Below, one piece after another: positions 7,301 through 33,829 of a stretch of DNA of 64,000 nt. The DNA comes from Minisyncoccia bacterium (GTDB lineage: Bacteria > Patescibacteriota > Minisyncoccia > Phycocordibacterales > UBA918), in contig JBGSJJ010000015.1 of NCBI GenBank assembly GCA_041742075.1, positions 65,132 to 129,131 of the forward strand, in the 5' to 3' direction. The position numbers and the translations under genes were made by a program. The notes below the pieces were generated by a model, which worked only from the letters and a program-made list of their open reading frames with translations, searched no databases and was not told the origin of the DNA. The first letter of the stretch is position 1. The number at the start of each line of letters is the position of its first letter.

Positions 7301-9619
7301 GGATGAAGTCGCAATTTGATTCCAGGTATTGCCTGCTCCACCAATGAGGAGTTGGTTCACGCCAGTGGTTGAGGTACCGGTGCCTCCACGGGTTGGGGCT
7401 AAGATACCGATGGTATCTGAAAGCGCGATGCCGAGTGTACTGGTAGCAATCCACCGTGTAGAGGTACCGGTAGTTTGCAGCACCATACCTAAAGTACCAG
7501 TGGCGTTGTTGTTATCTCGGAGGGCACCGTTTAGGTACGTCACTCCAGCCAAGGTGAGGTTGGTTGATGAGGCGTTGAAGAGTGTTGGGGCGGTGAGGAA
7601 AGAGGAGGAAGCGCGGACGAAGCCACCTGAGGTGCCTTGTTCGTCGGTAAGAGCAAGAGCGAAGTTGTCTGATGATGGTGTTGCGAGGAAGGTCGCAACG
7701 TTGGTACCAAGACCTGAGACACCAGTACTAATCGGGAGACCAGTGGCGTTCGTGAGCACACCAGAGATTGGGGTGCCAAGAGCTGGAGCGATTAAGGTTG
7801 GACTGGTGAGGGTAGAGGAAGACGCACGAACGAAGCCACCTGAGGTACCGTTCTCATCAGAGAGGAGGGCGGCGAGTTGGTCGGAGTTGGTGAAGGCTAG
7901 TGAGGTTCCTAACGTTGAAGTAGCCACCCACTGAGTACTGGTGCCGGTGGTTTGGAGGATCATCCCGAGGGTACCACCTGAGTTAGAGGCGTCACGGAAG
8001 CGACCGGTAAGGGTGAGGTCAGAGAGAGTACTCGTGCCAGTAATTGATAGGGTGCCGGTTGCAATCACGTTACCAGCGACAGTAAGCAGAGCTGACGGTG
8101 AAGTGGTACCGATACCGACGTTGCCATTTGTCATCACGGTCATGCGCGACACACCGTTCGTGAACAGACGTAAGTCGTGGTTACTAATCGTGCCAATGAA
8201 ACCTTGCGAGGTGTCTGAACGTAATTCGGTAACTACATTGTTGGTAGTATTGATAGTCCTCAGTCCAGCTTCAGCAGAAGTTCCTTCTAGATGCAGAAGG
8301 CGTGCTGGTGAAGTCGTACCGATACCGAGTCTCGTCCCGGTAAATACAAACGTGTCACTATCAGTGAGTCCAGTTGCACCACTGTTTGTAAACGGAATCC
8401 GGTTGGCGTTGTACGCACTTGGTGTATCACTCAATCCCAAAAAGGTGTTGTTGCCAAAGCCAAGGGTAGAGGTACTCGTCCAGGTAGGCTGACCGCCCGA
8501 GACAGCAAGCACCTGACCAGCTGTACCAATACTAAGCGCAGCCGGTGTGTCAATTGCCGACGCGTAAAAGAGTGAACCACTCGGCATCGACGGCATGTCC
8601 GCTAAGTCAAACAAAGACGATCCCGAGAGGTCAGACAAGTAGGCATTGTCGAGAGCACAAATAGTACCGTTACAAGAAAAATCACCGAAGTCTAAGTTTG
8701 CCAGGTTGGTTGGTCCAATTGCATTTGCCGTTATTTCTTGTCCGGTGAGTGACAGGTAATCTTCTCCGGCTAAAGTGACAGCATCATGCCCAGCTGAAAA
8801 CCCAAGTGAGCTGGTCGCTACCCACTGGGTGCTTGTACCAGTTGTGAGAAGCACCATCCCAAGCGTACCGCGACTGCTGGCGTTGTCTCTAAGGCCACCC
8901 GTAAGCGTGAGGTCGGAGAGCGTGGTAGTACCCGTGACAGCCAAGGTACCCGTTGCGGATACGCTACCCCCGAAGTAGCTGTTTCCACTGACGGTGAGTC
9001 TCGCTGACGGAGTACTTGAGCCGATACCGACGTTGCCCGAGTTAGTTATCGTAAACAAATTGGTCACTCCTGAAAATAGTTCAAGTAAGTTACCGGCTCC
9101 ATTTTGAATCAAGGTGAGAAGTGCATTTGAACTTGTGGTAGCGAGTGTACCAGCCTGGTCACTGCGTAAGAAACTGGTCGTAGCTAAGCCTCCAAACTGC
9201 TCAGCGTTTTGCGCCTCAAACGCGGCTGGTACCGTTCCGAGAATCTTTCGTGGCGACATTTCGGCATCGGCCTCGATACTCACACCAAGGTAAAGAGTTT
9301 GCGTAAAGTCGACTCCTGCGCTCGCAAAAGAGGTGGTACTGCCGAGCATAACTGAGAAGAGTCCATTTGTAACCGTCACTTCGTTTGTACCATCGAGCGT
9401 CTCTGTCCAAATAGGTGAACCAGTTGAGGCAACGGTGTAGAGTGAGAATTCCATCTCATAGGTGCCGTTTGGAACCGCCACACCAGCGTTTGTGGTGAGC
9501 TTTCCTTGGTAGTTGATAGTCGGACTTTGCGCCAGTACTTGGGTCGATACAAACAGACCACAGGCAAAAACAATCAGGGTAGCGATCGTAAGTTGCAGTT
9601 GTAGCCGGAAGTGAATCAT
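1313..9619 (-). CDS. Giant (2768 aa) secreted/surface repeat protein with a signal peptide, an N-VGIGTTxP-x-KL-type beta-helical (tail-fibre-like) motif array, seven near-identical ~33-aa repeats, and a Pro/Glu-rich C-terminal tail.
   Basis: Single uninterrupted 8.3-kb ORF. N-terminus MIHFRLQLQLTIATLIVFACGLFVSTQVLAQ is signal-peptide like. The motif GxLRDNxxxxGTLGMVLQTTGTSTRWVATSTLG occurs 7 times and AALLSDEQGTSGGFVRASSS about 6 times. GNVGIGTTSPSxKLxV motifs recur. C-terminus is ...STPPPAPAPEPEVSEGGGEGG...EPEPVVEKPEPVEPEPE. Composition is dominated by T, S, G, A, N. Confidence 0.8.
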   Translation of the reverse strand: MIHFRLQLQLTIATLIVFACGLFVSTQVLAQSPTINYQGKLTTNAGVAVPNGTYEMEFSLYTVASTGSPIWTETLDGTNEVTVTNGLFSVMLGSTTSFASAGVDFTQTLYLGVSIEADAEMSPRKILGTVPAAFEAQNAEQFGGLATTSFLRSDQAGTLATTSSNALLTLIQNGAGNLLELFSGVTNLFTITNSGNVGIGSSTPSARLTVSGNSYFGGSVSATGTLAVTGTTTLSDLTLTGGLRDNASSRGTLGMVLLTTGTSTQWVATSSLGFSAGHDAVTLAGEDYLSLTGQEITANAIGPTNLANLDFGDFSCNGTICALDNAYLSDLSGSSLFDLADMPSMPSGSLFYASAIDTPAALSIGTAGQVLAVSGGQPTWTSTSTLGFGNNTFLGLSDTPSAYNANRIPFTNSGATGLTDSDTFVFTGTRLGIGTTSPARLLHLEGTSAEAGLRTINTTNNVVTELRSDTSQGFIGTISNHDLRLFTNGVSRMTVMTNGNVGIGTTSPSALLTVAGNVIATGTLSITGTSTLSDLTLTGRFRDASNSGGTLGMILQTTGTSTQWVATSTLGTSLAFTNSDQLAALLSDENGTSGGFVRASSSTLTSPTLIAPALGTPISGVLTNATGLPISTGVSGLGTNVATFLATPSSDNFALALTDEQGTSGGFVRASSSFLTAPTLFNASSTNLTLAGVTYLNGALRDNNNATGTLGMVLQTTGTSTRWIATSTLGIALSDTIGILAPTRGGTGTSTTGVNQLLIGGAGNTWNQIATSSLGLSAQFINSSELAALLSDEQGTSGGFVRASSSMLTNTTLINASSTLGFTLSGTTYLQGALRDNNNATGTLGMVLQTTGTSTRWVATSTLGFGSGSLFTDGGATSYLTSLSDSLAIGSTTAHSNAKLDVWGNFRVGTGTVPALFTDVSTSKTTFNGLTEFTNNILLNGGSQATDNLFYLSSENSGTVNASIGFFAAGRGSNNSSQGAYFLARGNDFNELSDQRGNILFVAGNPSGPSDPEGSIQFWTGAEEQRMTINRFGNIGIGSSTPSAKLAITGTAGTSDIFAVASSTNARLFTVTSGGDVGIGTTTPASKLDVWGNFRVGTGTTPTLFVDSATGNVGIGTANPAYQLQVGDGTTSGFQYIRNFGNTADIYIGQTGGTLFGFSSGTAALIAQDAGRDFPLVVGNVNNNALILGTNNTERIRINGNGNVGIGTSTPPYLLTVGNQNLLMTFNNSVAENNDPYALGMETDANSARRFTLATLEGGNRHALQFGDASGSESVFGIGRSNDSGATWQASFAVEANGDVAVGTSSITAGAALFVLNETSDISFQVNDVLGDTSPFVIANDGAVGIGTTTPSSKLTVAGSGYFGGNLTATGTLAVTGTSTLTDLTLTGGLRDNSGSRGTLGMILQTTGTSTRWVATSTLGASAAFSDSNGLAALLSDEQGTSGGFVRASSSILTAPTVFGTLAINGSSTASAGYFMGTTPVLTGSTTRNNFFFAGASSTSITTGTYNYAIGDGALRFLGTGTNNTAIGQNALFGSSTALMSGLNNVAIGPFALDENTSGSYNIALGELTLTQNTTGSNNTALGIQSLAANTTGIDNIGIGSYTLFTNSTGLRNIALGRDALSVNNGTGTIAIGYRVADNATGVDRGIFLGYDIDAFSTTQDDVLNIGNLIFGTGVDGTGTTLSSGNIGIGTSSPASKLSVAGDFRLTGGFRDGVNATGTLGMVLQTTGTSTRWVATSTLGTSAAFTDSNGLAALLSDEQGTSGGFVRASSSMLTNTTLVNASSTLGFTLSGTTYLQGALRDNNNATGTLGMVLQTTGTSTRWVATSTLGLGNGTFLGLTDTPSSFTANRIMYTNSGATALTDSTDFVFTGTNLGIGTSTPTARLAITGAAGAGDIFAIASSTNSRLLTVKSSGAVGIGTANPDSTALLHLSAANGTSNPVELRLSNTSSNGSAQVVLEETGGDGIILRYNSRFDGTRNGFEILSQASSLPLLRVERDTGNLGIGSFLDSTAAPAYKLDIINSAVGTLDLARLQNDEVATNNNGTQLLFGANRTTGGMTNVAGLSGIITDITNGAYKGALVFSTANNAVPAERMRLDYLGNLGIGSTTPTAKLTVTGTAGTTDIFALASSTNARLLTVTAAGNMGIGTTTPNSKLSIQATGVTGTTTAGIMQYLGLANSSGGGVQFGNQTEIVHTGSATTTIVGNLLRLADSTSRGNVIRGLEVQVDRGTNTLGESTALSGFGRTFGLRATTRGDAGDLYEPAGVYAETEGTIQGNAIRGYSRTITSAALMALYQEDSTFTGSGLLMNFGNDTGSYAGNFINLQNVGSGVFTVSSYGTTTIGNGTTMAGLQIGRGGLCVDNDGSCNASTTGRITSVSATVGNSDLAEMYFSRENLEPGEIVYADGGISVGRASTETTEKIIGVVSTKPGMTLGFDDTSLRSRESGYPIALTGRVPIKLSTENGAIKVGDKIALSSIPGVGKKAEPGDVVVGSALEDFTGEYAYSEGFVNQFGDDIRLPDIPETPVDPKAQDGCSYGGGGAVGSAGATNCVKNTEPVVPDTEIAEELEEEAEETLEDIEVLQNVRAKSVTVNGQQVQVGTVLMFVKLGRFDDARTATIMRELTSTSTDIVFGGAGESLWDRLKTLAQNFVDGVLTVTGIKTEIVETEQLCIEDVCVTADDLRRLLNGNGSGTGPSTPPPAPAPEPEVSEGGGEGGSRGSGGSGTEDIPEDPVVEETPPPTPEPEPVVEKPEPVEPEPEASPESEAVEPTS
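4150..8900 (-). repeat. Intragenic long direct DNA repeats within the giant gene (units of ~100-300 bp, several segments of 30 nt or more identical).
   Basis: For example, gaagcaccatacctaatgtaccggtggcgtt is identical at 4185-4215 and 4449-4479. Related copies lie near 5395, 7060, 7450, 7925 and 8810. gacgcgcggacgaagccaccac-type copies lie near 4310, 5270, 7200, 7610 and 7810. The repeats also produce the repeated antisense ORF translations in the track (ARTKPP(L/E)VPCSS...). Confidence 0.8.
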
Positions 9620-18135: not shown

Positions 18136-19167
18136 TTAAAGACACGTCACTTCACGTTCGAGTACGATGCCGGTCGCTTCAAAAGTTCGCTCGGCAAGCG
18201 TATTTGAAAACGCGAGGACCTCTTTTGCAGTCGCACCTTCATACGCTACCAACACCAGTGCTTGCCCCTCAAACGTACCAACAGAGCCAATTCTTTCACC
18301 CTTTGCGTTTAGTATCTTGTCAAAAATATAGCCAACGGGAACTTTTATTTGTGTGGCCGAAAGCGGATACATCGGTAGTTCAGGATACTTTCTCTCCAGC
18401 ATAAGCGCTTCGGTACTTGAAATAATTGCGTTCTTAAAAAACGAACCAGCCGTACCTACCACGGTCCAGTCAGGAAACTTCTTTGAACGTATTTCAATTA
18501 CGGCTTCACGAATCGCGAGCAGACTTGGCTCTTTGGTATCTTTAAAATATTCTTCTAAATCTTTGTACGTTAGTTTCCTCTCTGGAATTTTTGATAGTTC
18601 AAAAGTTACTTCGGTCACAATATATCTTCCAGGCTCTTGTTTAAAAACTGAATCACGGTAACCGAAATTACATTCCTCCACTACTAAGAGTCGGTAACAC
18701 TCTTCTAGCGTATCAAAAACCCGTACCTGGGAAATGAGGCTTTGTATTTCGACCCCATATGCACCAACGTTTTGCACCGGGGTCGCTCCCACACTTCCAG
18801 GTATATGCGATAAATTCTCAAGTCCCCACCACCCTTCCTCAACACATCTTTTGATAAACTCATCAAACACTTCGCCAGCACCGACCACTACCTTAATAAC
18901 CTCCTCTGTTGTACCTACTACCTCTACCCCTTTGATAGCTATGTGGATGAGTAAACCACCAACACCCTCGTCAGAGACGAGGGTGTTTGAGCCCCCACCG
19001 AGGATTCGTATCGGTAGGTTGTTTTTTTTCGCATAGGTACGAGCACTCGTGAGTTCAGCTTCCGTTGTAACCCGCACGTAGTGTTCTGCCTTTCCTCCCA
19101 CCTTGAGCGTAGTAAGAGGAGCTAAGGGGACGTTCTGTTCGATCGTAATGTGCATTATGGAGTACAC
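18136..19167 (-). CDS. murB: UDP-N-acetylenolpyruvoylglucosamine reductase MurB
   Basis: ...LAPLTTLKVGGKAEHYVRVTTEAELTSARTYAKKNNLPIRILGGGSNTLVSDEGVGGLLIHI... is the FAD-binding MurB signature. C-terminal domain present. Confidence 0.88.
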   Translation of the reverse strand: MYSIMHITIEQNVPLAPLTTLKVGGKAEHYVRVTTEAELTSARTYAKKNNLPIRILGGGSNTLVSDEGVGGLLIHIAIKGVEVVGTTEEVIKVVVGAGEVFDEFIKRCVEEGWWGLENLSHIPGSVGATPVQNVGAYGVEIQSLISQVRVFDTLEECYRLLVVEECNFGYRDSVFKQEPGRYIVTEVTFELSKIPERKLTYKDLEEYFKDTKEPSLLAIREAVIEIRSKKFPDWTVVGTAGSFFKNAIISSTEALMLERKYPELPMYPLSATQIKVPVGYIFDKILNAKGERIGSVGTFEGQALVLVAYEGATAKEVLAFSNTLAERTFEATGIVLEREVTCL

Positions 19168-21341
19168 GGCGTGTCAGGCGCCTTACCAGTTTCAATGTTC
19201 GAGATAATACACTTCGCGTTTGGTGCAAGTCCTGGTGCAGCGATACTACCTTCTTTGAGTACTTCGATAGCGCGATCATTATTCTTAAGTTCATAGTAGA
19301 TGAACGCAAGACTTGCCCAATTTTGTGCGTCTGCTGGCAGAGCCTTCACGCGCAACTCATACAATTCAGCCAACCAACCTAAGTCACCTTTTTGCTGAAC
19401 GGTACCGACAGCAAAGTCATTCTGAGCAAAAGCTAATCGTTCTTCTTCAGTCGTGAGCAGGGCTTTTGCCTTCGGTACATCTTCGAGATTGGCTACCATC
19501 GCCGCATACAACACTCTCGCCTGTACATACCCCGGCACTCGGTCATGCGCTTCTTTGAAGAACGCGAGCGCGCCAGCCGGGTTGTTCATTTGAAGTTCAA
19601 CCACTCCTTGCTCAATCATCATGGCAGGCTTATCAGGTGAAAGCCCTCGCGCGATTGCGGCCTGCTCCTTGGCTTGCGGAAGCGCACCAATGTTTCGGTA
19701 GTAGTTCGAGAGGAAGATATGAAGCCGAGCATCGCCTGGTTTTTCGTCAATCATGCGCAACAACTCCAGTTCGGCTCGCATCACAAACGGATCTTTTTCT
19801 TCGGCTGGCACGCTGGGGTCACGCGCTATGTTCATGGCCATCTGGGCCAACTGCTCGACTATTTCTTGATCTCCAAAGCCTTTACGTCCAATCGCTCGAT
19901 CAAACGCTTCGAGACGTTCAATCACCGTTGGAGCGCGGAGTGCTTCAATAATGTCTCCCGCGGCCAGGTAGGAAGGGATGTTTACAAAATACACACCGGC
20001 TACACAGAGTACCAGCACCACCGGTGTTGCGACCTGCAGTACCAGAGTTTGGCTAACTTTAAACTTCTCTACCTTAGGGAGGGTTCGCGCGACCCGTGCA
20101 TGGACTAGACCAAGGAGAGTTCCATAAAAGATGTAACTAATAATGTTGTCAAACACCACTACGTTGTGCAAAAGGTAACCTGTCAGAAGCCCGAGAATAA
20201 TTGCTCGTTCAAGTACATTGAAGTCAGTGTCGACTTCCTTTCGGCGGAGCGGTATCCAAAACAGGTAATACAGAATTGCTCCCATAATACTAAAGTAGGA
20301 TAGGAAGCCCACGACTCCGCCAGCAATCAGCCAGTCAAGGAAAATATTGTGTGTTCTATCGAACCACTGCTCTTGGTTGTAGAGTTCAGCTTTGTAGTTT
20401 TGGTTAAACACAAAGTTAAAGTTGCCGTGTCCCCAACCGAGCACCGGTCGCTCTTTGACGCCATCAAGCGCCATCCCCCAGATAGTTCCGCGCACCACGA
20501 GGTCTGACTTAAGGTCTATGTTTGCAATACGAGCGAGTGAACCGTTACTTTGGATAAAATCTGCTTCCCGAACTGAGTAGAGTGTCCCAGCTAAAACCAC
20601 CAGCGCAATAATCCCGCCAATTGCGAGCTTTCGAAACTGTGGAAAGCGAGCCCCGAAAATCGCAACATACGCCACACTGACGACTGCTCCACCAGCCAGA
20701 CCCAAGAACGTACCGCGGGTACCAGTCTGGAGTAGTGTGGCCAAAAAGAGTAGCGAAATCAATATGTACGCCCCGCGGTACCACCAGTCTTTTGCTCGAA
20801 CATAGAGTAAAGCGGTGAAGAAGATATGGAAAAGCATGTATACCGCCATGTACGCTGAGTTACCAAGCGTACTGTCAATACGGGCAATACCGCTATTTTG
20901 CATCTGTATATATCCCTTTACGGCGACAAAGGCTGCCACCGCAATAGTAGTATGAAGAAAGATAGACCAGGTCCGAGCGGTAAACGCCATACTCCCGAGC
21001 ACCACAAAGTACATCCACAAGTGAATAATAGTGACAATACCATCCATTCGCTCGTAGTTACTCCAGAAACTAGTGGCTGGACTCTTCCCGAGAACAGCTG
21101 ACAGTGAAATCAAGGCGATAAAAACGGTAAAGGTTACCAGTATCCAAGAAAATTTTGGCCGGTAGCGGGCATCGATGAGAGCAAGGAGAATCCAAGCCGA
21201 AAACACAATCTCAACTATGATGCGGAAAAAGAAGTTTTTTCCGGTTATAAATGGAAAAAAGAGACTATCGGTAACTAAAAGTGGTAAAAAAAGTACGAGG
21301 AACAAACCACCGTACACAAGGCCTTGTAACATATCTTTCAT
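19155..21341 (-). CDS. Polytopic membrane protein with a Wzy_C (O-antigen ligase / PglL-like) domain fused to C-terminal TPR repeats. Likely start is the Met at 21341; the track extends to 21434.
   Basis: About 12 TM helices in the N-terminal 430 aa (…GTRGTFLGLAGGAVVSVAYVAIFG… region typical of Wzy_C) followed by a soluble TPR-like region (LAFIYYELKNNDRAIEVLKEG...). Overlaps murB by 13 nt. Confidence 0.7.
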   Translation of the reverse strand: MKDMLQGLVYGGLFLVLFLPLLVTDSLFFPFITGKNFFFRIIVEIVFSAWILLALIDARYRPKFSWILVTFTVFIALISLSAVLGKSPATSFWSNYERMDGIVTIIHLWMYFVVLGSMAFTARTWSIFLHTTIAVAAFVAVKGYIQMQNSGIARIDSTLGNSAYMAVYMLFHIFFTALLYVRAKDWWYRGAYILISLLFLATLLQTGTRGTFLGLAGGAVVSVAYVAIFGARFPQFRKLAIGGIIALVVLAGTLYSVREADFIQSNGSLARIANIDLKSDLVVRGTIWGMALDGVKERPVLGWGHGNFNFVFNQNYKAELYNQEQWFDRTHNIFLDWLIAGGVVGFLSYFSIMGAILYYLFWIPLRRKEVDTDFNVLERAIILGLLTGYLLHNVVVFDNIISYIFYGTLLGLVHARVARTLPKVEKFKVSQTLVLQVATPVVLVLCVAGVYFVNIPSYLAAGDIIEALRAPTVIERLEAFDRAIGRKGFGDQEIVEQLAQMAMNIARDPSVPAEEKDPFVMRAELELLRMIDEKPGDARLHIFLSNYYRNIGALPQAKEQAAIARGLSPDKPAMMIEQGVVELQMNNPAGALAFFKEAHDRVPGYVQARVLYAAMVANLEDVPKAKALLTTEEERLAFAQNDFAVGTVQQKGDLGWLAELYELRVKALPADAQNWASLAFIYYELKNNDRAIEVLKEGSIAAPGLAPNAKCIISNIETGKAPDTPCTP

Positions 21342-22720: not shown

Positions 22721-23446
22721 TTAGTGAAGGTGGATTTTTTTGGCGCGCTCAGAGTGGAACTCTTCAGCGGTCTCAGATATCTTTTCGATATCTTCCTCTT
22801 CTGATTCCCCTATCTGGACCTCCAAGATGTCGAGGTCGGTGTTTAGTGGAGCAGTGGGTGCGTGCCATACACCAGGTAGGTTAATGTGCACTTCCCCATT
22901 TGGCATAAAGAAGAACTCACTCCGCTTATTGTGGCGCTGAAGAGAAAGTGTCTTCCCCGCTTCGATATGGAGCATTTTTACCTTAAGCTTCGGGAGATCA
23001 AGGACGACGTCATAAAAACCCCAGCGGGTTGGTACTCTCTGGCGTCCGTTAATAGCTGAACTCGAACTATACTTTCCGCCCCCCACCTCGAACACTGGTT
23101 CAATACCAAGCTCCGCGCAGACATCAAGCTCAGGTGTGTTGTCTTTCTTGCGGTCGCCTCCGTTTCCAAAGTAATCAGGCTTAATCCGCCGCAAAGCCTC
23201 ACAGACAGTGCCATCACTATCGTCTACCTCATAGACATACGGCGTATAGGCTTCGAGGATTTTTTTTCGGTCGGTAAATGGTTGGAAAAAGAAACCTTTC
23301 TTTCTAATGAGCCAGTCGTCACTGTTTACCACAATATGTACGTCACCGTACTTCTGCGCATCTTCAATCATGGCAATGTGTCCAGGATGAATCGGGTCAA
23401 AACCGCCTGAAATAACGATGGACTTCTTTTTTGGTTCGGTACTCAT
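22721..23446 (-). CDS. Bidomain protein: cytidylyltransferase-like nucleotidyltransferase (HxGH motif) plus C-terminal cupin. Start is probably the Met at 23446.
   Basis: SIVISGGFDPIHPGHIAMIED is the (T/H)xGH motif of the RfaE-domain-II/glycerol-3-P cytidylyltransferase class. C-terminal KTLSLQRHNKRSEFFFMPNGEVHINLPG is cupin-like. Confidence 0.6.
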   Translation of the reverse strand: MSTEPKKKSIVISGGFDPIHPGHIAMIEDAQKYGDVHIVVNSDDWLIRKKGFFFQPFTDRKKILEAYTPYVYEVDDSDGTVCEALRRIKPDYFGNGGDRKKDNTPELDVCAELGIEPVFEVGGGKYSSSSAINGRQRVPTRWGFYDVVLDLPKLKVKMLHIEAGKTLSLQRHNKRSEFFFMPNGEVHINLPGVWHAPTAPLNTDLDILEVQIGESEEEDIEKISETAEEFHSERAKKIHLH

Positions 23447-23571
23447 ATATATGTATAGTGAATTAACTAATAGCGACAAAGGTATTACTGATTGTAACCT
23501 CCCGACCTCATTCTGGGTTACAACTAAGGTCAATATAAGCGACCGCTGGAATTAATAAGTAACTGTGATAG

Positions 23572-24675
<1,104 letters not shown>

Positions 24676-24762
24676 CAACTACCTAGGTAATACTGCAGTA
24701 ATGACAAAGACAGCCCGGCAACGAAGTTGCCGGGCTGTCTTTGTCACAAGCTTAGTTTAAGA

Positions 24763-25020
24763 CTACTCATACAGTTCGCTATGAGACCCTATCTCAAGAA
24801 AAATGACGGACTGATTATCATAGATAAAAATCGCACGATAGTCAGCACTAACGTTTAAACTGAGGCAGGGGTACCTAACTCCTTGAAGCGTATGAATATG
24901 GAGTAAAGGATGGTTTGGATACTCAAGAAAAATTGCCAACCGGTCTGTAAATTGCTTTTGCACTTTTTTTGGTAGCTTCTTATACTGCTTTTTAAAGTGC
25001 CGATGAAACGAAACTTCCAT
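24763..25020 (-). CDS. Type II toxin, RelE/ParE (YoeB-like) family
   Basis: 85 aa. FKKQYKKLPKKVQKQFTDRL...LHIHTLQGVRYPCLSLNVSADYRAIF matches the RelE/ParE fold pattern. Stop lies 4 nt after the upstream antitoxin gene. Confidence 0.7.
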   Translation of the reverse strand: MEVSFHRHFKKQYKKLPKKVQKQFTDRLAIFLEYPNHPLLHIHTLQGVRYPCLSLNVSADYRAIFIYDNQSVIFLEIGSHSELYE

Positions 25021-25023
25021 GAA

Positions 25024-25296
25024 TTATTTTGCGAGCCAAGCCTCAGCTTGAGCTTTTGAAGAAAAACCTTTTGAGACATGCTTTCCTGCTCGCGCTTCGG
25101 CGATATGCTTTTCGAGCTTTGCCAACACAGCCGGTTTGAGTTGTGGCTCACGCGCCAAGGTAAAGGCACCTGAACGCACAAACTCATGTAAGTAGGCATT
25201 GACCACAGTTGAGAGTGGTACTCCTAAGTATTCAGCGAGCGCTTGCGCTTGCTCCTTAACTAGCTTATCGGTCTTTATGTTTAAGACAGTTTTCAT
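25024..25296 (-). CDS. Type II antitoxin, RelB/DinJ family
   Basis: 90 aa. MKTVLNIKTDKLVKEQAQALAEYLGVPLSTVVNAYLHEFV is a RHH/DinJ-like N-terminus. Immediately upstream of the RelE-like gene. Confidence 0.62.
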   Translation of the reverse strand: MKTVLNIKTDKLVKEQAQALAEYLGVPLSTVVNAYLHEFVRSGAFTLAREPQLKPAVLAKLEKHIAEARAGKHVSKGFSSKAQAEAWLAK

Positions 25297-25357
25297 AATC
25301 TAACCATTGTATACACAACGGTTATTTTGTCAATCATGTAATGTATATAAAATTCAA

Positions 25358-25380
25358 CCCCATCCGCGTAGCGGATGGGG
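25358..25380 (-). terminator. Terminator hairpin downstream of the HD-like gene. Member of a repeated hairpin family (see 26221..26247).
   Basis: ccccatccgc gta gcggatgggg. Minus-strand reading is followed by TTGAATTTTAT. Confidence 0.5.
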
Positions 25381-25430
25381 TCTTGGTTTGAGTGGAAGCG
25401 TTTTGTTTCCTTGGCTTCGGCTAGAAAAAT

Positions 25431-26195
25431 TTAATTGTACATCTCATAATACTCGCCGAGAGCTTGCTTGATATCGTCCTCAGACTCGTTTAGAACATTG
25501 TGTCGACGAGCAATCTCGGCTCCAAAAGCTCGCACGAAGGATAGATATGCTCGCATGTCCTTCTCATCGATAAGGCCACGAGCAGTATCCGAAGGCAACA
25601 TACCTACCCACTCAATCATTCGAAACAGGTTCTGGTAGACGGTCTTCATCTGCCCTTCAACCGTCGTACCGTAGCCAAACGGATTAGCCGGGTCGTACAG
25701 AGGCATCGAGGCACTATGTGCTACACCAGAGACGATTCCGAGCGGACCGAGGCGGTCAAGCTTGTCGGCAATACGCAGTGCGGTAAGCAGAGGTGTATCG
25801 TTCGGCTCATCGTCTTTCTTGCTGTGCTGAAGAACCGCATCAATGATTCTCGCCCGCGCCATATAGTCAAACCGGCTTTCTTTAAGCAGATACTCGAGCA
25901 AATGGTTAAGGGGTATGAGTTTTTCAACCCCTCTCACCATACTCAAACGGTCGAGATTGTGGAGCCAGACCGCCGCCTGGTATTCACCCTGATCAAACGA
26001 AAGCTGAGTCGCTCGCCTGATACGCTCTCCAAGCGCGACCATACGATGCACATGCTCCACATCGTGCCCACCAGGAGCGTTCGGCATCGTATAGAGTGGC
26101 CCGAGTTTAGCTTCAAGCTCTTTAAGAAAACCACGCACTTTTTTCTCCTCATAGAGCACGACCACCGCGCTTTTCCAAGTACTCTTATACAACAT
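25431..26195 (-). CDS. Hypothetical protein, possibly an HD-superfamily-like hydrolase (weak)
   Basis: 254 aa. H..H (HDVEHVHRM), LHNLD and ADKLDRLG spacing loosely resembles HD motifs. Not conclusive. Confidence 0.4.
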   Translation of the reverse strand: MLYKSTWKSAVVVLYEEKKVRGFLKELEAKLGPLYTMPNAPGGHDVEHVHRMVALGERIRRATQLSFDQGEYQAAVWLHNLDRLSMVRGVEKLIPLNHLLEYLLKESRFDYMARARIIDAVLQHSKKDDEPNDTPLLTALRIADKLDRLGPLGIVSGVAHSASMPLYDPANPFGYGTTVEGQMKTVYQNLFRMIEWVGMLPSDTARGLIDEKDMRAYLSFVRAFGAEIARRHNVLNESEDDIKQALGEYYEMYN

Positions 26196-26220
26196 TATAC
26201 ATAAAAATCAACCCCACCCG

Positions 26221-26247
26221 CGAAACTTGCGGATGGGGTCTTGATGT
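26221..26247 (-). terminator. Terminator hairpin downstream of the Dabb-like gene. Near-identical to the 25358..25380 hairpin.
   Basis: ccccacccgc gaaactt gcggatgggg. Minus-strand reading is followed by TTGATTTTTAT. Shares the flanking caacccca...ggggtcttg with the other copy. Confidence 0.5.
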
Positions 26248-26272
26248 GTTCGCTTGAAGCGGACGGGGCGCG

Positions 26273-26752
26273 TCAGCGGATTTTAATTCTTAGACTTTGA
26301 CTTGGTGAATAGACCCCTTTATCGCCTTCCTCAAGCGAAAGTTCGGTGTTTCGGGTGTAGGCCTCCAGATAAGAGCCTTCACCGAGCGGGTTAATGGCTA
26401 CATCGGAGACCACCCAATGTTCGGCCAACCCGGCAATTTTCTGGCCGAAGGCGACGTGGTCGGGATGGGCGTGGAAGTTGATGAAGGCTTCTGGGCCTGC
26501 AAACAGCCCCACCTCGACCCAGCCATACCCCTTACGCTGGTCGATGTTCGGCCGGACAGAGAAAGACTTGATGCCCGCCTTAGCTCCTCCGCACAGCTTG
26601 TGGAGCGCGGCGCACTCTGCCATCACTGCTATCTGCTCCTCCTCGGTGACATCCGCTTTGAACTTGAACGTCACAATGTGAAGCAGGTCGGCATCACTCG
26701 GGACACCATCTCGGATAAAAGTGTAAAGTGGGTTTTCAGTTACTTGCGTCAC
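26273..26752 (-). CDS. Stress-responsive alpha/beta-barrel (Dabb)-like protein (weak)
   Basis: LHIVTFKFKADVTEEEQIAVMAECAALHKL is reminiscent of the Dabb domain. 159 aa. Confidence 0.4.
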   Translation of the reverse strand: MTQVTENPLYTFIRDGVPSDADLLHIVTFKFKADVTEEEQIAVMAECAALHKLCGGAKAGIKSFSVRPNIDQRKGYGWVEVGLFAGPEAFINFHAHPDHVAFGQKIAGLAEHWVVSDVAINPLGEGSYLEAYTRNTELSLEEGDKGVYSPSQSLRIKIR

Positions 26753-26862
26753 GGCGTTTCTCCTTTGGCTGACGTACCGGTACTTTCCACATTACAGCAC
26801 AACCTAAGCCAAAAAGCCATACCTGTCACCAAATGCCGACAGATAGTGTTATAATCGTCATC

Positions 26863-27792
26863 ATGGAAAAAACCGCTAAAATCTATGTCGCTGGCCATAG
26901 AGGTCTCGTTGGCTCAGCGCTTATTCGCTCACTTCAAAAGAACGGCTACACCAACCTCATTACCAAAACTCGAGCTGAACTCGATTTGCTCGACGCACAA
27001 GCGGTGGCCAACTTCTTCGCTACCGAAAAACCGGAGTATGTTTTTCTGGCCGCCGCTAAGGTTGGTGGCATAATGGCCAACAAAACCTACCCCGCTGACT
27101 TTATCTTTGAAAACCTCAGTATTCAAAACAACGTCATCCATAGTGCGTATGTATCGGGTGTTAAAAAGTTACTCTTTCTCGGCAGTTCTTGTATCTATCC
27201 AAAACTAGCCCCGCAACCGATTAAAGAAGAGTACTTACTTACTGGTCCACTAGAACCAAGCAACGACGCGTATGCCATAGCAAAAATTGCGGGCATTATG
27301 ATGTGTCAAAGCTACAAGCGCCAATACGGTAGCAACTTCATCAGCGTGATGCCCACCAACCTCTACGGAGAAAATGATAACTTTGACTTAGAAACGAGTC
27401 ACGTCCTCCCCGCTCTCATTCGTCGCTTCCATGAAGCCAAGGAAAATAGTGTGCCGAGTGTTACCCTCTGGGGTTCGGGCACCCCGATGCGTGAGTTTAT
27501 CCATGTAGACGATATGGCTCTAGCTTGCCTCCATCTAATGGAAACCTATAACGAAAGTGAGATTGTGAATATCGGCACAGGCGAAGACGTCACTATCAAG
27601 GAACTAGCCGAGACCGTGGCAAAGGTAGTCGGTTACCAAGGAGAGCTCTTGTGGGATACGAGCAAGCCTGACGGCACTCCTCGCAAGCTTCTTGATGTAT
27701 CCAAACTACACGGACTTGGCTTCAAGCATACGATTCAGCTTGAAGACGGCATCCGTGATACATATGAATACTACAAAAAAGTTACTGTTTGA
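26863..27792 (+). CDS. fcl: GDP-L-fucose synthase (GDP-4-keto-6-deoxymannose 3,5-epimerase/4-reductase). ATG at 26863; the track's 26833 start is an upstream in-frame extension.
   Basis: [33 protein letters not shown]...[19 protein letters not shown]...YAIAKIAG is canonical Fcl/WcaG. Confidence 0.92.
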
Positions 27793-27794
27793 GT

Positions 27795-28973
27795 ATGATT
27801 CTCTATTTTGATACTTTCATAACTGAAACTCCGCTTCACAAAAAAGCTCCACCTAAAGATGACGTGCGAGATAAGCACGATATCTATCGGATGCCAAGTA
27901 AAATTGAAATAGCTAAATATTCCTTAGCGAGTTATTCAATATTTTCGTGGTCAAATGTATATATCAAATACGAACTAGAAGATACTAGTCTTACTCTTGA
28001 ATTTGATAATTTTATAAAAGAACTTTTTCCTGAAGTAATTATTGAACATGAAAGAAGTGACTCACAATCTGATTACCAAAATTCTTTAGCAACGCTTAAG
28101 AAATTAAACGACCCGTGGATATTTTACTCTCCTAATAATGATCACCCGTTATTGATTAGTCAAAAAACAGATACCGAATACATCAAACGTTTGGTTGATA
28201 AAGCTGAACAATGGCGAGCTCTTTTTCCGTTTGTTTCTATTATTTATTCCCATTTTGAAGAATACATTAATGCTCCATACCCAAATAGTGCTAATCACCG
28301 CTTCTTTGGTAAAGACATGGTTCTCTTACATGAAGATGACGAGGTCATAATTTGTCTCAAAAAACACGGGGACTTTAATTCAGTTCAAATTGTACACATT
28401 GACTTGTTTTCACATTGGTTTACTTCAAGTGATTTATCCGCTTCAGTCGTTAGGCGGGCGGAAGATTTACATCAAGTGGAAGTAAAAAATCATATCCTGA
28501 TTATACCGAAAAAAAGACTATGCGCGCATTTTGATGGGTATGAGCATATGCAAGGTACCGCAAATGAAATCCTGCAGGATACAAGCCCAGTCCTTTTTAT
28601 CCCACCTGGTTTTTTTGATAAAAAAATTAAAATTGCTTATGGGTATAGTCAGCGGAAAAATGGTTACACAAATATTAATCCAGGAACAAAAAAATATAGT
28701 TTCAGAAATTCAACAACCGGGACTGATCTGAAATTAAGCTTAGCTGAAATACCTTTATTTTGGAAAGACAGAATTAAAGAAATAGATATTAACCCTCACG
28801 CAAACCATCAATTGCTGAACAAAATGGCTAGAGTACATTTTGCAAAACAAAAATATCCTTGGAGTGTTTTTAGTAGAGGACTAAATGGTAAAAATTTTAT
28901 CTTTCAAATTAAGCGGGGTCTAAGGTTTATTAGAGATGAATTTATTACAAAGCAAGGAATACTTCAGAAATAA
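27795..28973 (+). CDS. Hypothetical protein (393 aa), first gene of the AT-rich block, function unknown
   Basis: Long ORF immediately after the fcl stop (track start 27789 is TTG; ATG at 27795). No family recognised. Confidence 0.5.
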   Translation: MILYFDTFITETPLHKKAPPKDDVRDKHDIYRMPSKIEIAKYSLASYSIFSWSNVYIKYELEDTSLTLEFDNFIKELFPEVIIEHERSDSQSDYQNSLATLKKLNDPWIFYSPNNDHPLLISQKTDTEYIKRLVDKAEQWRALFPFVSIIYSHFEEYINAPYPNSANHRFFGKDMVLLHEDDEVIICLKKHGDFNSVQIVHIDLFSHWFTSSDLSASVVRRAEDLHQVEVKNHILIIPKKRLCAHFDGYEHMQGTANEILQDTSPVLFIPPGFFDKKIKIAYGYSQRKNGYTNINPGTKKYSFRNSTTGTDLKLSLAEIPLFWKDRIKEIDINPHANHQLLNKMARVHFAKQKYPWSVFSRGLNGKNFIFQIKRGLRFIRDEFITKQGILQK

Positions 28974-29111
28974 CTTTTCTTTACTAAATTTTTTCTAAAA
29001 CACCGTATATACCCACTTAATAGAATTAAAAAGTCATTTAATTTAGAGCACATATTTAAATAATTTCAATGTGTTTTGAATTATTATTTGGGGTATTCTT
29101 TCAATTTAAGT

Positions 29112-30746
29112 ATGAAAACAAAGGGGTCCACAATAGCCGTAATCCCCGCCGCTGGTATACCTACCAACAAGCTAAACATCCACTCCAACACACCCGATAC
29201 GATGTTGCCCATAAATGGTAAGCCAGTTATTGGTCATATTCTTGATGACCTACTCGCGCGAAAAATTTATCGAGCAGTCATTGTTCTAAACGAACACGAC
29301 CTACACACAGAAAAATATGTCAATCGTAAATATTCTTCCAAACTTAAACTTTCAATTGTACGAAACGCTCTTTATGGTCGGGGTCTCGGGTACTCAATTT
29401 ATCTGGGTTGTCGAGAAATAAGCGACCTTGAATCCTACGATGGAATACTAGTTTATTTAGGAGACACAATTTACAAAGGTGACTTAGACTTTAGTAAAGA
29501 TTTCGTAATTATCAACTCAAATCTAGTGAACAGTCAAAGGTGGTGTTATGTTGAAGAATCCCCTACTGGCCTTACCTATATAAATAAACCCTCCGAATAC
29601 GTTGGCGCTGGAAACCCTTTGGCCGGAATCTATTATTTTTCAAATCCTGAAAAATTAAATAGTGTTGTGAGTAGTGTGGTAAAACGAGAAGCTATTGTTG
29701 AACTTCATTTTATCCTGAGTATATACAATCAACACTTCGCATTAAAGCAAGCTGAACAACACTATGATTGTGGCAATATTGAAAACTATTATCAGGCACG
29801 AATAGACTTTTTACGTACCCGGAGTTTTAATACACTTGAATACAACGATCTGTTTGGAACTATTACAAAATCAGGCACGAATCGAGATAAAATTGAGGAT
29901 GAAATTAACTGGTTTAAGAATGTCCCTCATGAGCTACAAATCTTTACACCCAGATTAATCGATTACACTATTAGTGAATCCAAAGTTTCATATTCTCTAG
30001 AATACTATGGGTATCAGTCTTTAGCGGACTATTTTGTTTTAAATCAATTTGATGAAAAGGTTTGGCAAGTTCTTATTGACCGTCTTTTTACTATACTTAG
30101 TCTGTTTAAAAATTACTCGACACCACTTCCGCACCGAGCGTTTTATGAAATGTATGTAGAAAAAGTAGAAGCTCGAATCAAATTACTAGAGCAAGACGCA
30201 ACCTGGAAAGAACTTCTTTCTAAAGAAACACTTACGATCAATTCGGGTACATACCTTGGCTGGCCCACATATGCTTCTAAAATTTCAAGCTTTGCTGATT
30301 ACCTCTATGATTCCTCAACAGCCAGTTTTATTCACGGAGATTTATGTTTAAGCAACATTCTGTTTGATCCTCATACGTTACTGATAAAACTAATCGATCC
30401 ACGTGGCAAGTTTGGAGACTACACTGTCTATGGCGATCATAACTACGACCTAGCCAAGTTACGACATAGCTTTGTGGGGCTGTATGATTTTATTGTGAGT
30501 GATTTATTTATACTCGATGAGCATGAGAATACATTTCAATACCAAGTACTTTGCGACAAGGACCATGTCGAAATTGGTGAATTATTTGACGCTACTTTAC
30601 AAAAAAGAGGCTATAATACCACTGCGGTTATGTTAATCGAAGCTCTTCTTTTTCTGTCTATGATTCCACTCCATAGTGAGGCCCCAGTTCGACAAAAGGC
30701 AATGTTCTTAACTGGAATTCAACTCTTAAATAAAATTGAACTATGA
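29112..30746 (+). CDS. Bifunctional fusion: N-terminal sugar-phosphate nucleotidyltransferase domain plus C-terminal APH/choline-kinase-fold kinase domain
   Basis: N-terminus STIAVIPAAGIPTNKL...LPINGKPVIGHILDDL is NTP_transferase-like. C-terminus FIHGDLCLSNILFD...IDPRG is the Brenner motif HGDLxxxNIL of APH/choline/hexosamine-1-kinases. Stop overlaps the next gene's ATG (ATGA). Confidence 0.6.
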   Translation: MKTKGSTIAVIPAAGIPTNKLNIHSNTPDTMLPINGKPVIGHILDDLLARKIYRAVIVLNEHDLHTEKYVNRKYSSKLKLSIVRNALYGRGLGYSIYLGCREISDLESYDGILVYLGDTIYKGDLDFSKDFVIINSNLVNSQRWCYVEESPTGLTYINKPSEYVGAGNPLAGIYYFSNPEKLNSVVSSVVKREAIVELHFILSIYNQHFALKQAEQHYDCGNIENYYQARIDFLRTRSFNTLEYNDLFGTITKSGTNRDKIEDEINWFKNVPHELQIFTPRLIDYTISESKVSYSLEYYGYQSLADYFVLNQFDEKVWQVLIDRLFTILSLFKNYSTPLPHRAFYEMYVEKVEARIKLLEQDATWKELLSKETLTINSGTYLGWPTYASKISSFADYLYDSSTASFIHGDLCLSNILFDPHTLLIKLIDPRGKFGDYTVYGDHNYDLAKLRHSFVGLYDFIVSDLFILDEHENTFQYQVLCDKDHVEIGELFDATLQKRGYNTTAVMLIEALLFLSMIPLHSEAPVRQKAMFLTGIQLLNKIEL

Positions 30747-31816: not shown

Positions 31817-31860
31817 GAATGGGCCTAAAAGAATGTGTGCAATCTTAATAAACGAACCAT

Positions 31861-32520
31861 ATGCAATTTATATCTAAAACAAAATACAAAATAAAACTCT
31901 TATTTACAGATCCGGTGAAATTAGCTGGCATACTAAAAAATATGCTAAAAATGGCCTTTGTAAGTAAGGTTGATACTGGCCCTGAAGGGATACGGTGGAC
32001 TACTGAAATTGAAAAAAACCTCTTACAAAAATATGCTAAAAGTGCCCAGATTGGAATCGTAGAAATTGGTGTACTTGATGGAAAGACTACCAAGGAAATG
32101 GCCCTCGTTGCCAATGTGCCACTTTATGGAATCGACCCTCTGATACCAGACAGTATGAATAGAAGATTAATCGGTACGGAAGAAAAAGTTTTATCAAACT
32201 TAGCCTTTTATGAAAAATTTTATTTTATAAAAGACTTTAGCTACAACGTGGCCAAAAACTGGAGTAAACCTTTTGATTTTATCTTTATAGATGGTGACCA
32301 CACCTATGAAGCCGTAAAAAAAGATTTTGAAGACTGGTACAACCTCATCTCTCCTCAAGGATTCATTGCATTTCATGACTCTCACGCAATCACCGTTGAT
32401 GGGAAAGAAGTATTTGCCGGCTGGGCTGGTTGCGTACAATTTGTTTCAGAGTTAAAAGATGACCCTCGAGTTAACTTTGTAGAAGTGCAAGATTCGATTA
32501 CTGTTTTTCAAAAAAAATAA
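31861..32520 (+). CDS. Class I SAM-dependent methyltransferase (CmcI / Methyltransf_24-like)
   Basis: IVEIGVLDGKTT...FDFIFIDGDHTYEAVKKDFEDW...GFIAFHD. Confidence 0.65.
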   Translation: MQFISKTKYKIKLLFTDPVKLAGILKNMLKMAFVSKVDTGPEGIRWTTEIEKNLLQKYAKSAQIGIVEIGVLDGKTTKEMALVANVPLYGIDPLIPDSMNRRLIGTEEKVLSNLAFYEKFYFIKDFSYNVAKNWSKPFDFIFIDGDHTYEAVKKDFEDWYNLISPQGFIAFHDSHAITVDGKEVFAGWAGCVQFVSELKDDPRVNFVEVQDSITVFQKK

Positions 32521-32526
32521 TCTATT

Positions 32527-33825: not shown

Positions 33826-33829
33826 ATCT

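What the first reader, a model, noticed from the sequence alone, without database searches (positions are those of the whole stretch)
19155..21341. Wzy_C (O-antigen-ligase/PglL-like) + TPR membrane protein next to a Ser/Thr-rich giant surface protein and a fucose/dideoxyhexose glycan locus: candidate general protein O-glycosylation system
The Wzy_C family includes O-antigen ligases (WaaL) but also the protein O-oligosaccharyltransferases PglL, PilO and WsfB. The same window holds a Wzx flippase and over 10 glycosyltransferases. It lacks Wzy polymerase and Wzz chain-length genes. It also holds a 2768-aa Ser/Thr-rich secreted protein and other secreted proteins (LTD/PKD, BNR). Together this arrangement is what is seen for S-layer and adhesin O-glycosylation systems rather than LPS O-antigen. 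A C-terminal TPR extension on the transferase could mediate substrate-protein recognition. If this is a Gram-positive-like or CPR-type envelope without LPS, the inference strengthens.
Basis: inference. Interest (0 to 1): 0.7.

Follow-up and report, generated by a model that had tools for sequence, protein, structure and literature searches.

The report
Conserved WaaL-like glycan ligase of Paceibacteria
This gene encodes a membrane enzyme, found across a large group of ultra-small LPS-free (CPR) bacteria, that most likely moves ready-made sugar chains from a lipid carrier onto a cell-surface target. That target is probably surface protein, but it is unproven and the kind of enzyme is already known.

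Summary

New here: this is one member of a large, architecture-stable Patescibacteria (Paceibacteria) family. At least 558 GTDB species carry it, and 2,261 50%-identity clusters match at E<=1e-30.

The gene sits at a fixed position. Downstream is a conserved block: murB (start overlaps the stop, TAATG), secA, obg, gatB and the giant Thr/Gly/Ser-rich protein. Upstream is a hypervariable glycan-synthesis island with either a Wzx-like or an ABC-type flippase.

A conserved enzyme beside variable glycan genes argues for an en bloc ligase with relaxed glycan specificity, not a Wzy polymerase. The acceptor is unresolved. Protein O-glycosylation is the best guess: Paenibacillus WsfB has the same Wzy_C+TPR build, and Parcubacteria lack LPS. 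PglL-specific domains are absent, and no acceptor evidence exists. Linkage to the giant protein rests on synteny only. Some details were overstated (7 confirmed glycosyltransferases, not over 10). Verdict: new member of a known kind, moderately interesting.

The parts
19155..21341 (-). Wzy_C/WaaL-fold glycan ligase with C-terminal TPR domain (728 aa), the finding itself
   Evidence: ORF. Pfam Wzy_C plus TPR. AF2 model with pLDDT 86.3 and pTM 0.80. Homologues.
19977..21341 (-). Membrane domain, residues 1-455: 13 predicted TM helices, N-terminus inside, large outer loop at residues 257-332. Invariant outer-face residues include R209, R271, R284, H331-N332, D336, H392-N393 and D398-N399.
20292..20759 (-). 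Pfam Wzy_C match (residues 195-350)
19155..19976 (-). Extracytoplasmic all-helical TPR domain (residues 456-728) with invariant Cys711 and Cys726 near the C-terminus
   Evidence: TPR Pfam hits. Foldseek and HMMER hits to CTPR, OGT and SPINDLY TPR domains. It follows a 13th TM helix, so it is predicted to lie outside. The Cys pair is invariant in 41 sequences.
18136..19155 (-). murB. Its ATG overlaps the ligase stop codon (TAATG), so the two are likely co-translated. This pairing is conserved in relatives.
   Evidence: Pfam FAD_binding_4 plus MurB_C. Sequence read. MurB lies within +1/+2 in 47 of 61 loci, and is directly adjacent on the same strand in 42.
22721..57648 (.). Variable glycan-biosynthesis island. 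It holds GDP-fucose and dideoxyhexose-type sugar-nucleotide genes, methyltransferases and 7 Pfam-supported glycosyltransferases. The 28-50 kb part has low GC. It is the presumed source of the lipid-linked glycan donor.
   Evidence: Pfam scans. GC is 0.34-0.45 in the 28-50 kb part against 0.45-0.51 elsewhere in the window. Equivalent but different islands sit upstream of the gene in relatives.
32527..33825 (+). Wzx-like (Polysacc_synt/MurJ superfamily) flippase
   Evidence: Pfam. About 10 TM helices. A Wzx-like flippase is present upstream of the ligase in 26 of 53 related loci, and a fused ABC exporter in 9 others, never both.
1313..9619 (-). 2768-aa secreted Thr/Gly/Ser-rich protein. A speculative acceptor only, but a syntenic member of the conserved downstream block.
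   Evidence: Composition and N-terminal helix. No Pfam domain. N-terminal homologues appear at the far edge of 13 of 38 related loci that reach 9 kb or more downstream.

Best explanation
The gene encodes a WaaL-fold transferase that uses lipid-linked glycans, conserved across Paceibacteria (CPR).

**Proposed mechanism**
1. Enzymes of the adjacent, species-variable island assemble a glycan on undecaprenyl-pyrophosphate at the cytoplasmic face.
2. A Wzx-like flippase (or, in other species, a fused ABC exporter) flips the glycan to the outer face.
3. The ligase transfers it en bloc to a hydroxyl acceptor, using an outer-face active site built from the invariant Arg209/Arg284 (pyrophosphate binding) and His331.
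4. The roughly 270-residue TPR domain, tethered outside by a 13th TM helix and probably disulfide-stabilised, recruits the acceptor.

**Acceptor**
The most likely acceptor is secreted or surface protein. That would make this an O-oligosaccharyltransferase analogous to Paenibacillus WsfB.

**What is shown and what is inferred**
- Shown: fold, motifs, architecture, conservation and gene context.
- Inferred: the Und-PP donor, en bloc transfer, TPR topology and role, and the protein acceptor.
For: - **Catalytic motifs.** The R/R/H-type motifs align to WaaL 7tpg and are invariant in the family. These residues are essential in WaaL and conserved in PglL (PMC3643930).
- **Topology.** There are 13 TM helices, and positive charges sit on the predicted inside loops. 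This puts the TPR domain on the same side as the catalytic loop. An invariant Cys pair lies in the TPR tail.
- **Conserved enzyme, variable glycan genes.** Family members share 50-69% identity over full length in the top 120 hits. Upstream islands differ between species: fucose, nonulosonic-acid, sulfation, methylation and varied GTs.
- **Flippase pattern.** The islands carry either a Wzx-like or an ABC-type flippase, never both. Usually no other polytopic protein is present that could be a Wzy.
- **Precedent.** WsfB, the putative S-layer O-OTase of a Gram-positive, is Wzy_C plus C-terminal TPR. WsaB has a separate adjacent TPR protein (PMC2943079).
- **No LPS.** A Parcubacterium was reported to lack lipid A/LPS genes (PMC5220378).
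Against: - No experimental or computational evidence identifies the acceptor.
- The PglL_A and Wzy_C_2 domains that mark PglL/PglS O-OTases are absent.
- No pilin gene and no recognisable S-layer gene is adjacent.
- No initiating phosphoglycosyltransferase was found in the window or in related loci (crude test).
- The tight, conserved coupling to murB fits a cell-wall-related acceptor at least as well.
- TPR domains also scaffold polysaccharide export, so TPR does not prove protein recognition.
- Absence of LPS genes could not be checked for this genome, since only a 64-kb window is available.
Confidence: 0.45

Rival explanations
1. The chemistry is the same (en bloc transfer from a lipid-linked donor by a WaaL-fold ligase), but the acceptor is not protein. 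It would be a membrane glycolipid, lipid II, or peptidoglycan itself. The result would be an LPS-like or secondary-cell-wall glycopolymer on a monoderm CPR envelope.
For: - The stop codon overlaps the murB start (TAATG).
- The ligase-murB pair is adjacent on the same strand in 42 of 61 loci, down to 35% identity.
- The closest solved structure is a lipid-acceptor ligase.
- PglL-specific domains are absent.
- From my own knowledge, not tested here: Wzy_C-type proteins (WpaA/WpaB) are implicated in Bacillus anthracis secondary cell wall polysaccharide assembly.
Against: - murB is part of a longer housekeeping block (secA, obg, gatB) with no common function, so the adjacency may be historical.
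- In known monoderms, wall glycopolymers are attached by LCP enzymes, not Wzy_C proteins (established knowledge).
- A large, highly conserved extracytoplasmic TPR domain is more typical of protein recognition (PMC2943079).
Confidence: 0.3
2. It is the Wzy-type polymerase of the locus. It would polymerise flipped repeat units, with the TPR domain acting as a built-in chain-length or scaffold module.
For: - Pfam Wzy_C also covers Wzy polymerases.
- There is a weak hit to TIGR04370 'oligosaccharide repeat unit polymerase' (26.3 bits).
- No other candidate Wzy lies in the window or in most related Wzx-containing loci.
Against: - The TIGR04370 hit is below its cut-off of 40 bits.
- Wzy polymerases are repeat-unit specific and notoriously divergent. 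This protein keeps 50-69% identity next to islands with different sugar chemistry.
- It is equally conserved next to islands that use a fused ABC exporter instead of Wzx (9 loci). ABC-type export pathways normally need no Wzy.
- It retains the WaaL/PglL Arg/Arg/His set.
Confidence: 0.1
3. The enzyme is functionally unrelated to the neighbouring glycan island. The island would simply occupy an insertion hot-spot next to a conserved gene, and the enzyme would handle a conserved, housekeeping lipid-linked substrate made elsewhere.
For: - The island has lower GC and variable content, consistent with horizontal replacement at a hot-spot.
- No phosphoglycosyltransferase is in the islands.
- In this window two unknown ORFs separate the ligase from the island.
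Against: - The juxtaposition persists across the whole family, down to 35% identity.
- A flippase lies within 10 kb upstream in 35 of 53 loci.
- Ligases with relaxed glycan specificity beside variable glycan loci are the norm for WaaL and PglL systems (PMC12645811).
Confidence: 0.1

Closest known systems
WsfB of Paenibacillus alvei (putative S-layer protein O-oligosaccharyltransferase), and WsaB/WsaA of Geobacillus stearothermophilus
   Same: It has a Wzy_C membrane domain followed by a C-terminal TPR motif and comes from a monoderm without LPS. It works with a variable glycan locus, and wsfB is transcribed separately from the glycan genes (PMC2943079).
   Different: Sequence relatedness beyond shared domains was not tested. 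No S-layer or SLH gene was recognised here. The CPR protein is a class-wide core gene coupled to murB, not part of an S-layer glycosylation (slg) locus.
WaaL O-antigen ligase (Cupriavidus metallidurans, PDB 7TPG/7TPJ; E. coli WaaL)
   Different: Identity is only 14%. The CPR protein has an extra 13th TM helix and a roughly 270-aa external TPR domain. The lipid A-core acceptor should not exist in Parcubacteria (PMC5220378).
PglL / PglS general O-oligosaccharyltransferases (Neisseria, Acinetobacter)
   Same: They share the Wzy_C core and the conserved Arg/Arg/His (PMC3643930). They work with a Wzx-type flippase and no Wzy. They are 'general' enzymes not linked to one substrate gene (PMC12645811).
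   Different: The PglL_A (PF15864) and Wzy_C_2 (PF11846) domains that define this class were not detected even at E<=1.
TfpO/PilO and TfpM pilin O-oligosaccharyltransferases
   Same: They have a Wzy_C core without PglL_A or Wzy_C_2. CPR bacteria rely heavily on type IV pili, and pilin glycosylation is suspected but unexplored (PMC11623550).
   Different: Those enzymes are encoded next to their pilin substrate. No pilin-type N-terminal motif occurs anywhere in this window.
Eukaryotic TMTC1-4 and OGT/SPINDLY (glycosyltransferase plus TPR substrate-recruiting domain). This is an analogy from my own knowledge.
   Same: A catalytic glycosyltransferase module is fused to a TPR array on the side where substrates are met. 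The TPR part here is structurally closest to the OGT, SPY and consensus TPRs.
   Different: The catalytic folds and donors are unrelated. This is an analogy only.

Membership tests
Pfam Wzy_C (PF04932) / WaaL-fold lipid-linked glycan transferases | Wzy_C domain scoring above the gathering threshold | tested here: met
   68.3 bits against a cut-off of 31.7, E 8.3e-19, residues 195-350
Pfam Wzy_C (PF04932) / WaaL-fold lipid-linked glycan transferases | WaaL-type 12-TM core fold with a large outer loop | tested here: met
Pfam Wzy_C (PF04932) / WaaL-fold lipid-linked glycan transferases | Conserved Arg, Arg and His of the outer face (E. coli WaaL R215, R288, H338; PglL R224, R298, H349) | tested here: met
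   R209, R284 (also R271) and H331 are invariant in 41 and 36 sequences. They align to GTRG, VRLKIW and HN of 7tpg. Equivalence to the E. coli numbering is inferred from PMC3643930.
WaaL (true O-antigen:lipid A-core ligase) | The organism makes lipid A-core (lpx and kds genes) | not testable with these tools
   Only a 64-kb window is available. The literature reports no lipid A/LPS genes in a Parcubacterium (PMC5220378). All 80 related loci are Patescibacteria MAGs.
PglL/PglS O-oligosaccharyltransferases | PglL_A (PF15864) and Wzy_C_2 (PF11846) domains flanking Wzy_C | tested here: not met
   Neither family is listed in the Pfam scan at E<=1. The criterion comes from PMC3643930 and PMC12645811.
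TfpO/TfpM pilin O-oligosaccharyltransferases | Encoded adjacent to the cognate pilin gene | tested here: not met
   A six-frame scan of the window found no type IV pilin N-terminal motif. The neighbours are murB and two unknown ORFs.
WsfB-like S-layer O-oligosaccharyltransferases | Wzy_C domain plus C-terminal TPR in an LPS-free bacterium | tested here: met
   Architecture. The criterion comes from PMC2943079.
WsfB-like S-layer O-oligosaccharyltransferases | Sequence orthology to WsfB, and glycan transfer to an S-layer protein | not tested
   The WsfB sequence and the primary paper were not retrievable. No S-layer gene was identified.
Wzy O-antigen/repeat-unit polymerase | Match to the repeat-unit polymerase model, and serotype-specific divergence tracking the glycan locus | tested here: not met
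   TIGR04370 scores 26.3 bits against a cut-off of 40. The protein keeps 50-69% identity across species with different islands, including ABC-exporter islands.
IctB family (TIGR00947) | Score above the curated cut-off | tested here: not met
   32.3 bits against a cut-off of 366.4
SEDS peptidoglycan polymerases (FtsW/RodA) | Best structural and sequence match to SEDS | tested here: not met

The most novel reading that the evidence does not exclude
In the LPS-free, monoderm Paceibacteria this class-wide core enzyme, translationally coupled to murB, would ligate the species-variable glycans onto a non-protein envelope anchor. The anchor would be lipid II or peptidoglycan, or a membrane glycolipid. 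This would be a wall-glycopolymer attachment route based on a WaaL-fold enzyme rather than LCP proteins, effectively an 'O-antigen' on a single-membrane cell. The external TPR domain would dock onto the wall-synthesis machinery.
Probability: 0.2. Interest if true: 0.75.

Novelty: new member of a known kind. Interest (0 to 1): 0.45.

Why it matters
The cell envelope of CPR/Patescibacteria is still described as unclear (PMC5220378), and their glycosylation as unexplored (PMC11623550). These organisms live attached to hosts, so surface glycans probably decide host range, phage sensitivity and immune visibility.

A single enzyme lies next to each species' variable glycan genes. It is conserved and easy to recognise, present in at least 558 species and 2,261 50%-identity clusters. 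It gives a concrete experimental handle: express it with a lipid-linked donor and candidate acceptors.

It is also a genomic landmark for finding the glycan locus in any Paceibacteria MAG. If it proves to be a relaxed-specificity O-oligosaccharyltransferase, it could be useful for glycoconjugate engineering.

Tried and rejected
- **Single-sequence PDB search.** phmmer of the membrane domain against PDB found nothing useful. A family profile was needed to reach WaaL.
- **Full-length fold search.** Foldseek with the full-length model returned only TPR proteins. I therefore modelled the membrane domain alone.
- **AFDB50 fold search.** The library was unavailable. The spread of the full architecture outside CPR, including WsfB-like proteins, could not be mapped.
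- **WsfB primary paper and sequence.** These were not held. No direct comparison was possible.
- **Literature on O-antigen ligase in Patescibacteria.** Only an unrelated paper turned up. Other searches found no description of this family.
- **Cluster look-up for an organism name.** It gave no name or accession.
- **Motif scans.** Scans for WbaP/PglC-type and WecA/MraY-type initiating transferases and for pilins were negative. These are crude regex tests.
- **IctB and TIGR04370 membership.** Rejected on curated cut-offs.
- **Giant protein as a special feature of this locus.** Rejected. Its position is ancestral synteny shared with relatives.
Full report

Yes. A minus-strand ORF ends at 19155. 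That start matches every homologue, whereas the longer 759-aa form does not. Pfam reports Wzy_C (68.3 bits, cut-off 31.7, residues 195-350) and several TPR families over residues about 520-700. NCBIfam gives only sub-threshold hits: IctB at 32 against 366 bits, and the repeat-unit polymerase TIGR04370 at 26 against 40 bits.

The surrounding genes are broadly as described:
- the giant 2768-aa protein, GatB, Obg, SecA and MurB;
- the target itself, two unknown ORFs, and a cytidylyltransferase/cupin protein;
- GMD and a fucose-synthase-like epimerase;
- a Wzx-like flippase (32527-33825);
- a TPP enzyme, NTP transferase, 4,6-dehydratase and DegT-family set;
- FkbM and other methyltransferases;
- GT2 (three), GT-D, GT10, GT11 and GT1;
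- CofD/YvcK-like, LTD/PKD and VirD4-like proteins.

- Seven glycosyltransferases have Pfam support, not over ten.
- No BNR domain was seen.
- The giant protein starts 9.5 kb away, not next door.

Only the target and the Wzx-like protein are polytopic membrane proteins, so the window has no separate Wzy or Wzz. The giant protein has an N-terminal hydrophobic helix and is 14.3% Thr, 13.5% Gly and 10.2% Ser.

**2. What the protein is.**

A profile of the family reaches only one membrane protein in the PDB by sequence. That protein is the Cupriavidus WaaL O-antigen ligase 7TPG (E 2.7e-6). The family motifs tgtRGt, vRftiW and hN align to GTRGA, VRLKIW and HN. The AF2 models are confident:
- full length: pLDDT 86.3, pTM 0.80;
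- membrane domain alone: pLDDT 84.5, pTM 0.88.

R209, R271, R284, H331, D336, H392/N393 and D398/N399 are invariant across 41 homologues of 50-69% identity. All but H392/N393, which are about 90% conserved, also stay invariant in the second set of 36 that reaches down to 42%. PMC3643930 reports that R215, R288 and H338 of E. coli WaaL are functionally important and conserved in PglL. The three aligned positions here are their likely equivalents, which is an inference.

**3. Topology.**

The model has 13 long hydrophobic helices. If the short N-terminus is placed inside, every Lys/Arg-rich loop falls inside: RYRPK at 57-65, R232-K238, RRK at 366-368 and RTLPKVEKFK at 419-428. Every invariant polar motif then falls outside. 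The domain after helix 13 (residues 456-728) also lies outside, on the side of the catalytic loop. Two invariant cysteines (C711, C726) in the tail fit an extracytoplasmic disulfide. This topology is inferred, not measured.

**4. Who has it.**

The top 120 database hits are all 723-758 aa, aligned over 99-100% of the query, 50-69% identical, and carry Wzy_C plus TPR. Those with names are Patescibacteria or Candidatus Kaiserbacteria 'O-antigen ligase family protein'.
All of the 80 best that name a lineage are Patescibacteria MAGs: Kaiser-, Nomura-, Campbell-, Lloydbacteria and Paceibacteria, plus many generic 'uncultured Candidatus Saccharibacteria' titles and a few titled only 'bacterium'. One complete 0.75-Mb genome is among them.
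- An exhaustive HMMER search of 1.84 billion representatives found 2,261 50%-identity clusters at E<=1e-30. The best 150 are nearly all 620-830 aa, most matching over nearly their full length.

This is therefore a large, architecture-stable, class-wide family and not a feature of this locus. The exact protein occurs on Logan assemblies of two sequencing runs. No source name was retrievable.

**5. Gene context in 80 related loci.**

I used my own ORF calling and BLAST clustering.

Downstream is a conserved block:
- MurB lies within +1/+2 in 47 of 61 loci with enough sequence. It is directly adjacent on the same strand in 42, and 27 of those have gaps of 15 nt or less.
- SecA follows in 49 loci, a small holin_4_2-like membrane protein in 36, Obg in 30 and GatB in 26.
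- Homologues of the window's two unknown ORFs appear in 33 loci.
- The N-terminus of the giant protein appears at the edge of 13 of the 38 loci that extend 9 kb or more.

In the window the murB ATG shares a base with the ligase stop codon (TAATG).

Upstream the content differs from species to species, but it is almost always glycan biosynthesis:
- From clustering: Wzx-like flippase, Fcl-type epimerase, GMD, FkbM and other methyltransferases, GT1 and GT2, ATP-sulfurylase/APS-kinase and sulfotransferase, NeuB/NeuC/NeuA-like genes, and a fused ABC exporter.
- A Pfam survey of 140 upstream ORFs from 65 loci confirms these classes and adds Wzt_C.
- Of 53 loci with 8 kb or more upstream, 26 have the Wzx-like protein, 9 have the fused ABC exporter, and none have both. 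Usually no other protein with 8 or more TM helices is present.

In the window the island also has lower GC: 0.34-0.45 at 28-50 kb, against 0.45-0.51 elsewhere.

**6. Interpretation.**

A conserved WaaL-fold enzyme at the fixed edge of a hypervariable glycan island is the pattern expected of an en bloc ligase with relaxed glycan specificity. The islands use alternative flippase types, and usually no separate polymerase candidate lies within the 10 kb examined. WaaL and the O-oligosaccharyltransferases behave this way (PMC12645811). The pattern is not what a Wzy polymerase would show, since Wzy enzymes track the repeat unit and are not needed in ABC-type pathways.

A classical WaaL role is unlikely. 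A Parcubacterium was reported to lack lipid A/LPS genes (PMC5220378). I could not verify this for the present genome.

The acceptor is the open question. Evidence favouring protein:
- The external TPR domain is highly conserved.
- P. alvei WsfB, the putative S-layer O-OTase, is published as Wzy_C plus C-terminal TPR. In Geobacillus a separate TPR protein, WsaA, sits next to WsaB (PMC2943079).
- CPR bacteria carry abundant surface proteins and type IV pili, and their glycosylation is suspected but unexplored (PMC11623550).

Evidence against, or neutral:
- The PglL-specific domains PglL_A and Wzy_C_2 are absent.
- No pilin motif is in the window.
- No initiating phosphoglycosyltransferase motif is in the window or in related loci (crude).
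- The link to the giant protein is synteny only.
- The conserved translational coupling to murB keeps a wall or lipid acceptor plausible.

My estimates are:

| Reading | Probability |
|---|---|
| Protein O-OTase | about 0.45 |
| Non-protein acceptor ligase | about 0.30 |
| Polymerase | about 0.10 |
| Unrelated to the island | about 0.10 |

The broader statement, a lipid-linked-glycan ligase serving the adjacent island, I hold at about 0.75.

**7. Comparison and novelty.**

By fold and motifs this is a member of the Wzy_C/WaaL superfamily. It fails the tests for the PglL/PglS class, the pilin-linked TfpO/TfpM class, Wzy (TIGR04370), IctB and SEDS. It shares its domain make-up with WsfB, but orthology was not testable.

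The enzyme kind and the Wzy_C+TPR fusion are known. These points appear undescribed in the searched literature:
- the recognition of a class-wide CPR clade;
- its fixed genomic position between a variable glycan island and a murB-secA housekeeping block;
- its predicted 13-TM, TPR-outside topology.

I rate it a new member of a known kind, with interest of 0.45. It is a useful and testable handle on the unknown CPR envelope, but not surprising to a glycobiologist.

Noticed in passing
window 19153-19159 (-): The murB start codon overlaps the stop codon of the ligase gene by one base (TAATG). This implies translational coupling of a glycan ligase with a peptidoglycan-precursor enzyme. The adjacency is conserved in 42 of 61 related loci.
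   Followed up: yes
window 1313-19155 (-); L012, L013, L015, L017, L022, L024, L026, L032-L035, L037, L040 at their far downstream ends: The whole downstream block is ancestral synteny in Paceibacteria. It runs murB, secA, a small holin_4_2-like membrane protein, obg, gatB, two unknown membrane-anchored ORFs, then the giant Thr/Gly/Ser-rich secreted protein. The giant protein has no Pfam domain.
   Followed up: partly
window 36879-43733: A thiamine-pyrophosphate enzyme sits beside an NTP transferase, a 4,6-dehydratase and a DegT-family (E1-like) enzyme. From my own knowledge this resembles CDP-3,6-dideoxyhexose or branched-chain sugar (YerE/yersiniose-type) pathways. The product sugar was not worked out.
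   Followed up: no
window 28000-50000: The central part of the glycan island has markedly lower GC (0.34-0.45) than the rest of the window (0.45-0.51). This suggests horizontal acquisition or replacement.
   Followed up: partly
window about 24763-25296 (-); L001 6046-6579: A small two-gene pair, with weak ParE/YafQ toxin Pfam hits, is inserted between GMD and the Dabb-domain gene inside the sugar-nucleotide region. It is probably a toxin-antitoxin module.
   Followed up: no
related loci, e.g. L003 3184-4839, L014 4340-5176, L062 3016-4035, L078 6355-7518: The islands directly upstream of the ligase often encode other sugar chemistries. Fused ATP-sulfurylase/APS kinase appears in 12 loci and sulfotransferase in 6. 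NeuB-, NeuC- and NeuA-like genes appear in 6-10 loci. Sulfated and nonulosonic-acid-containing glycans may therefore be common in Paceibacteria.
   Followed up: partly
related loci, e.g. L059 7691-9475: A fused TMD-NBD ABC exporter (MsbA/PglK-like) lies immediately upstream of the ligase in 9-12 loci. It is mutually exclusive with the Wzx-like flippase, which suggests two interchangeable ways of flipping the donor.
   Followed up: partly
window 57725-58768 (-) and 3 related loci: A CofD-family (PF01933) gene recurs in these glycan islands. In an organism unlikely to make F420 it is probably a YvcK-like UDP-sugar-binding morphogenesis factor rather than a cofactor enzyme (my own knowledge).
   Followed up: no
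window 58829-62332 (-): An LTD/PKD surface protein lies next to a VirD4/TraG-like coupling ATPase at the far end of the window. It may be part of a DNA-uptake or secretion system and has no obvious tie to the ligase.
   Followed up: no
window 21483-22621 (-): Two ORFs of 183 and 170 aa have no Pfam match. They lie between the ligase and the sugar-nucleotide genes and were found only in the identical Logan contigs, not in the 80 related loci.
   Followed up: partly
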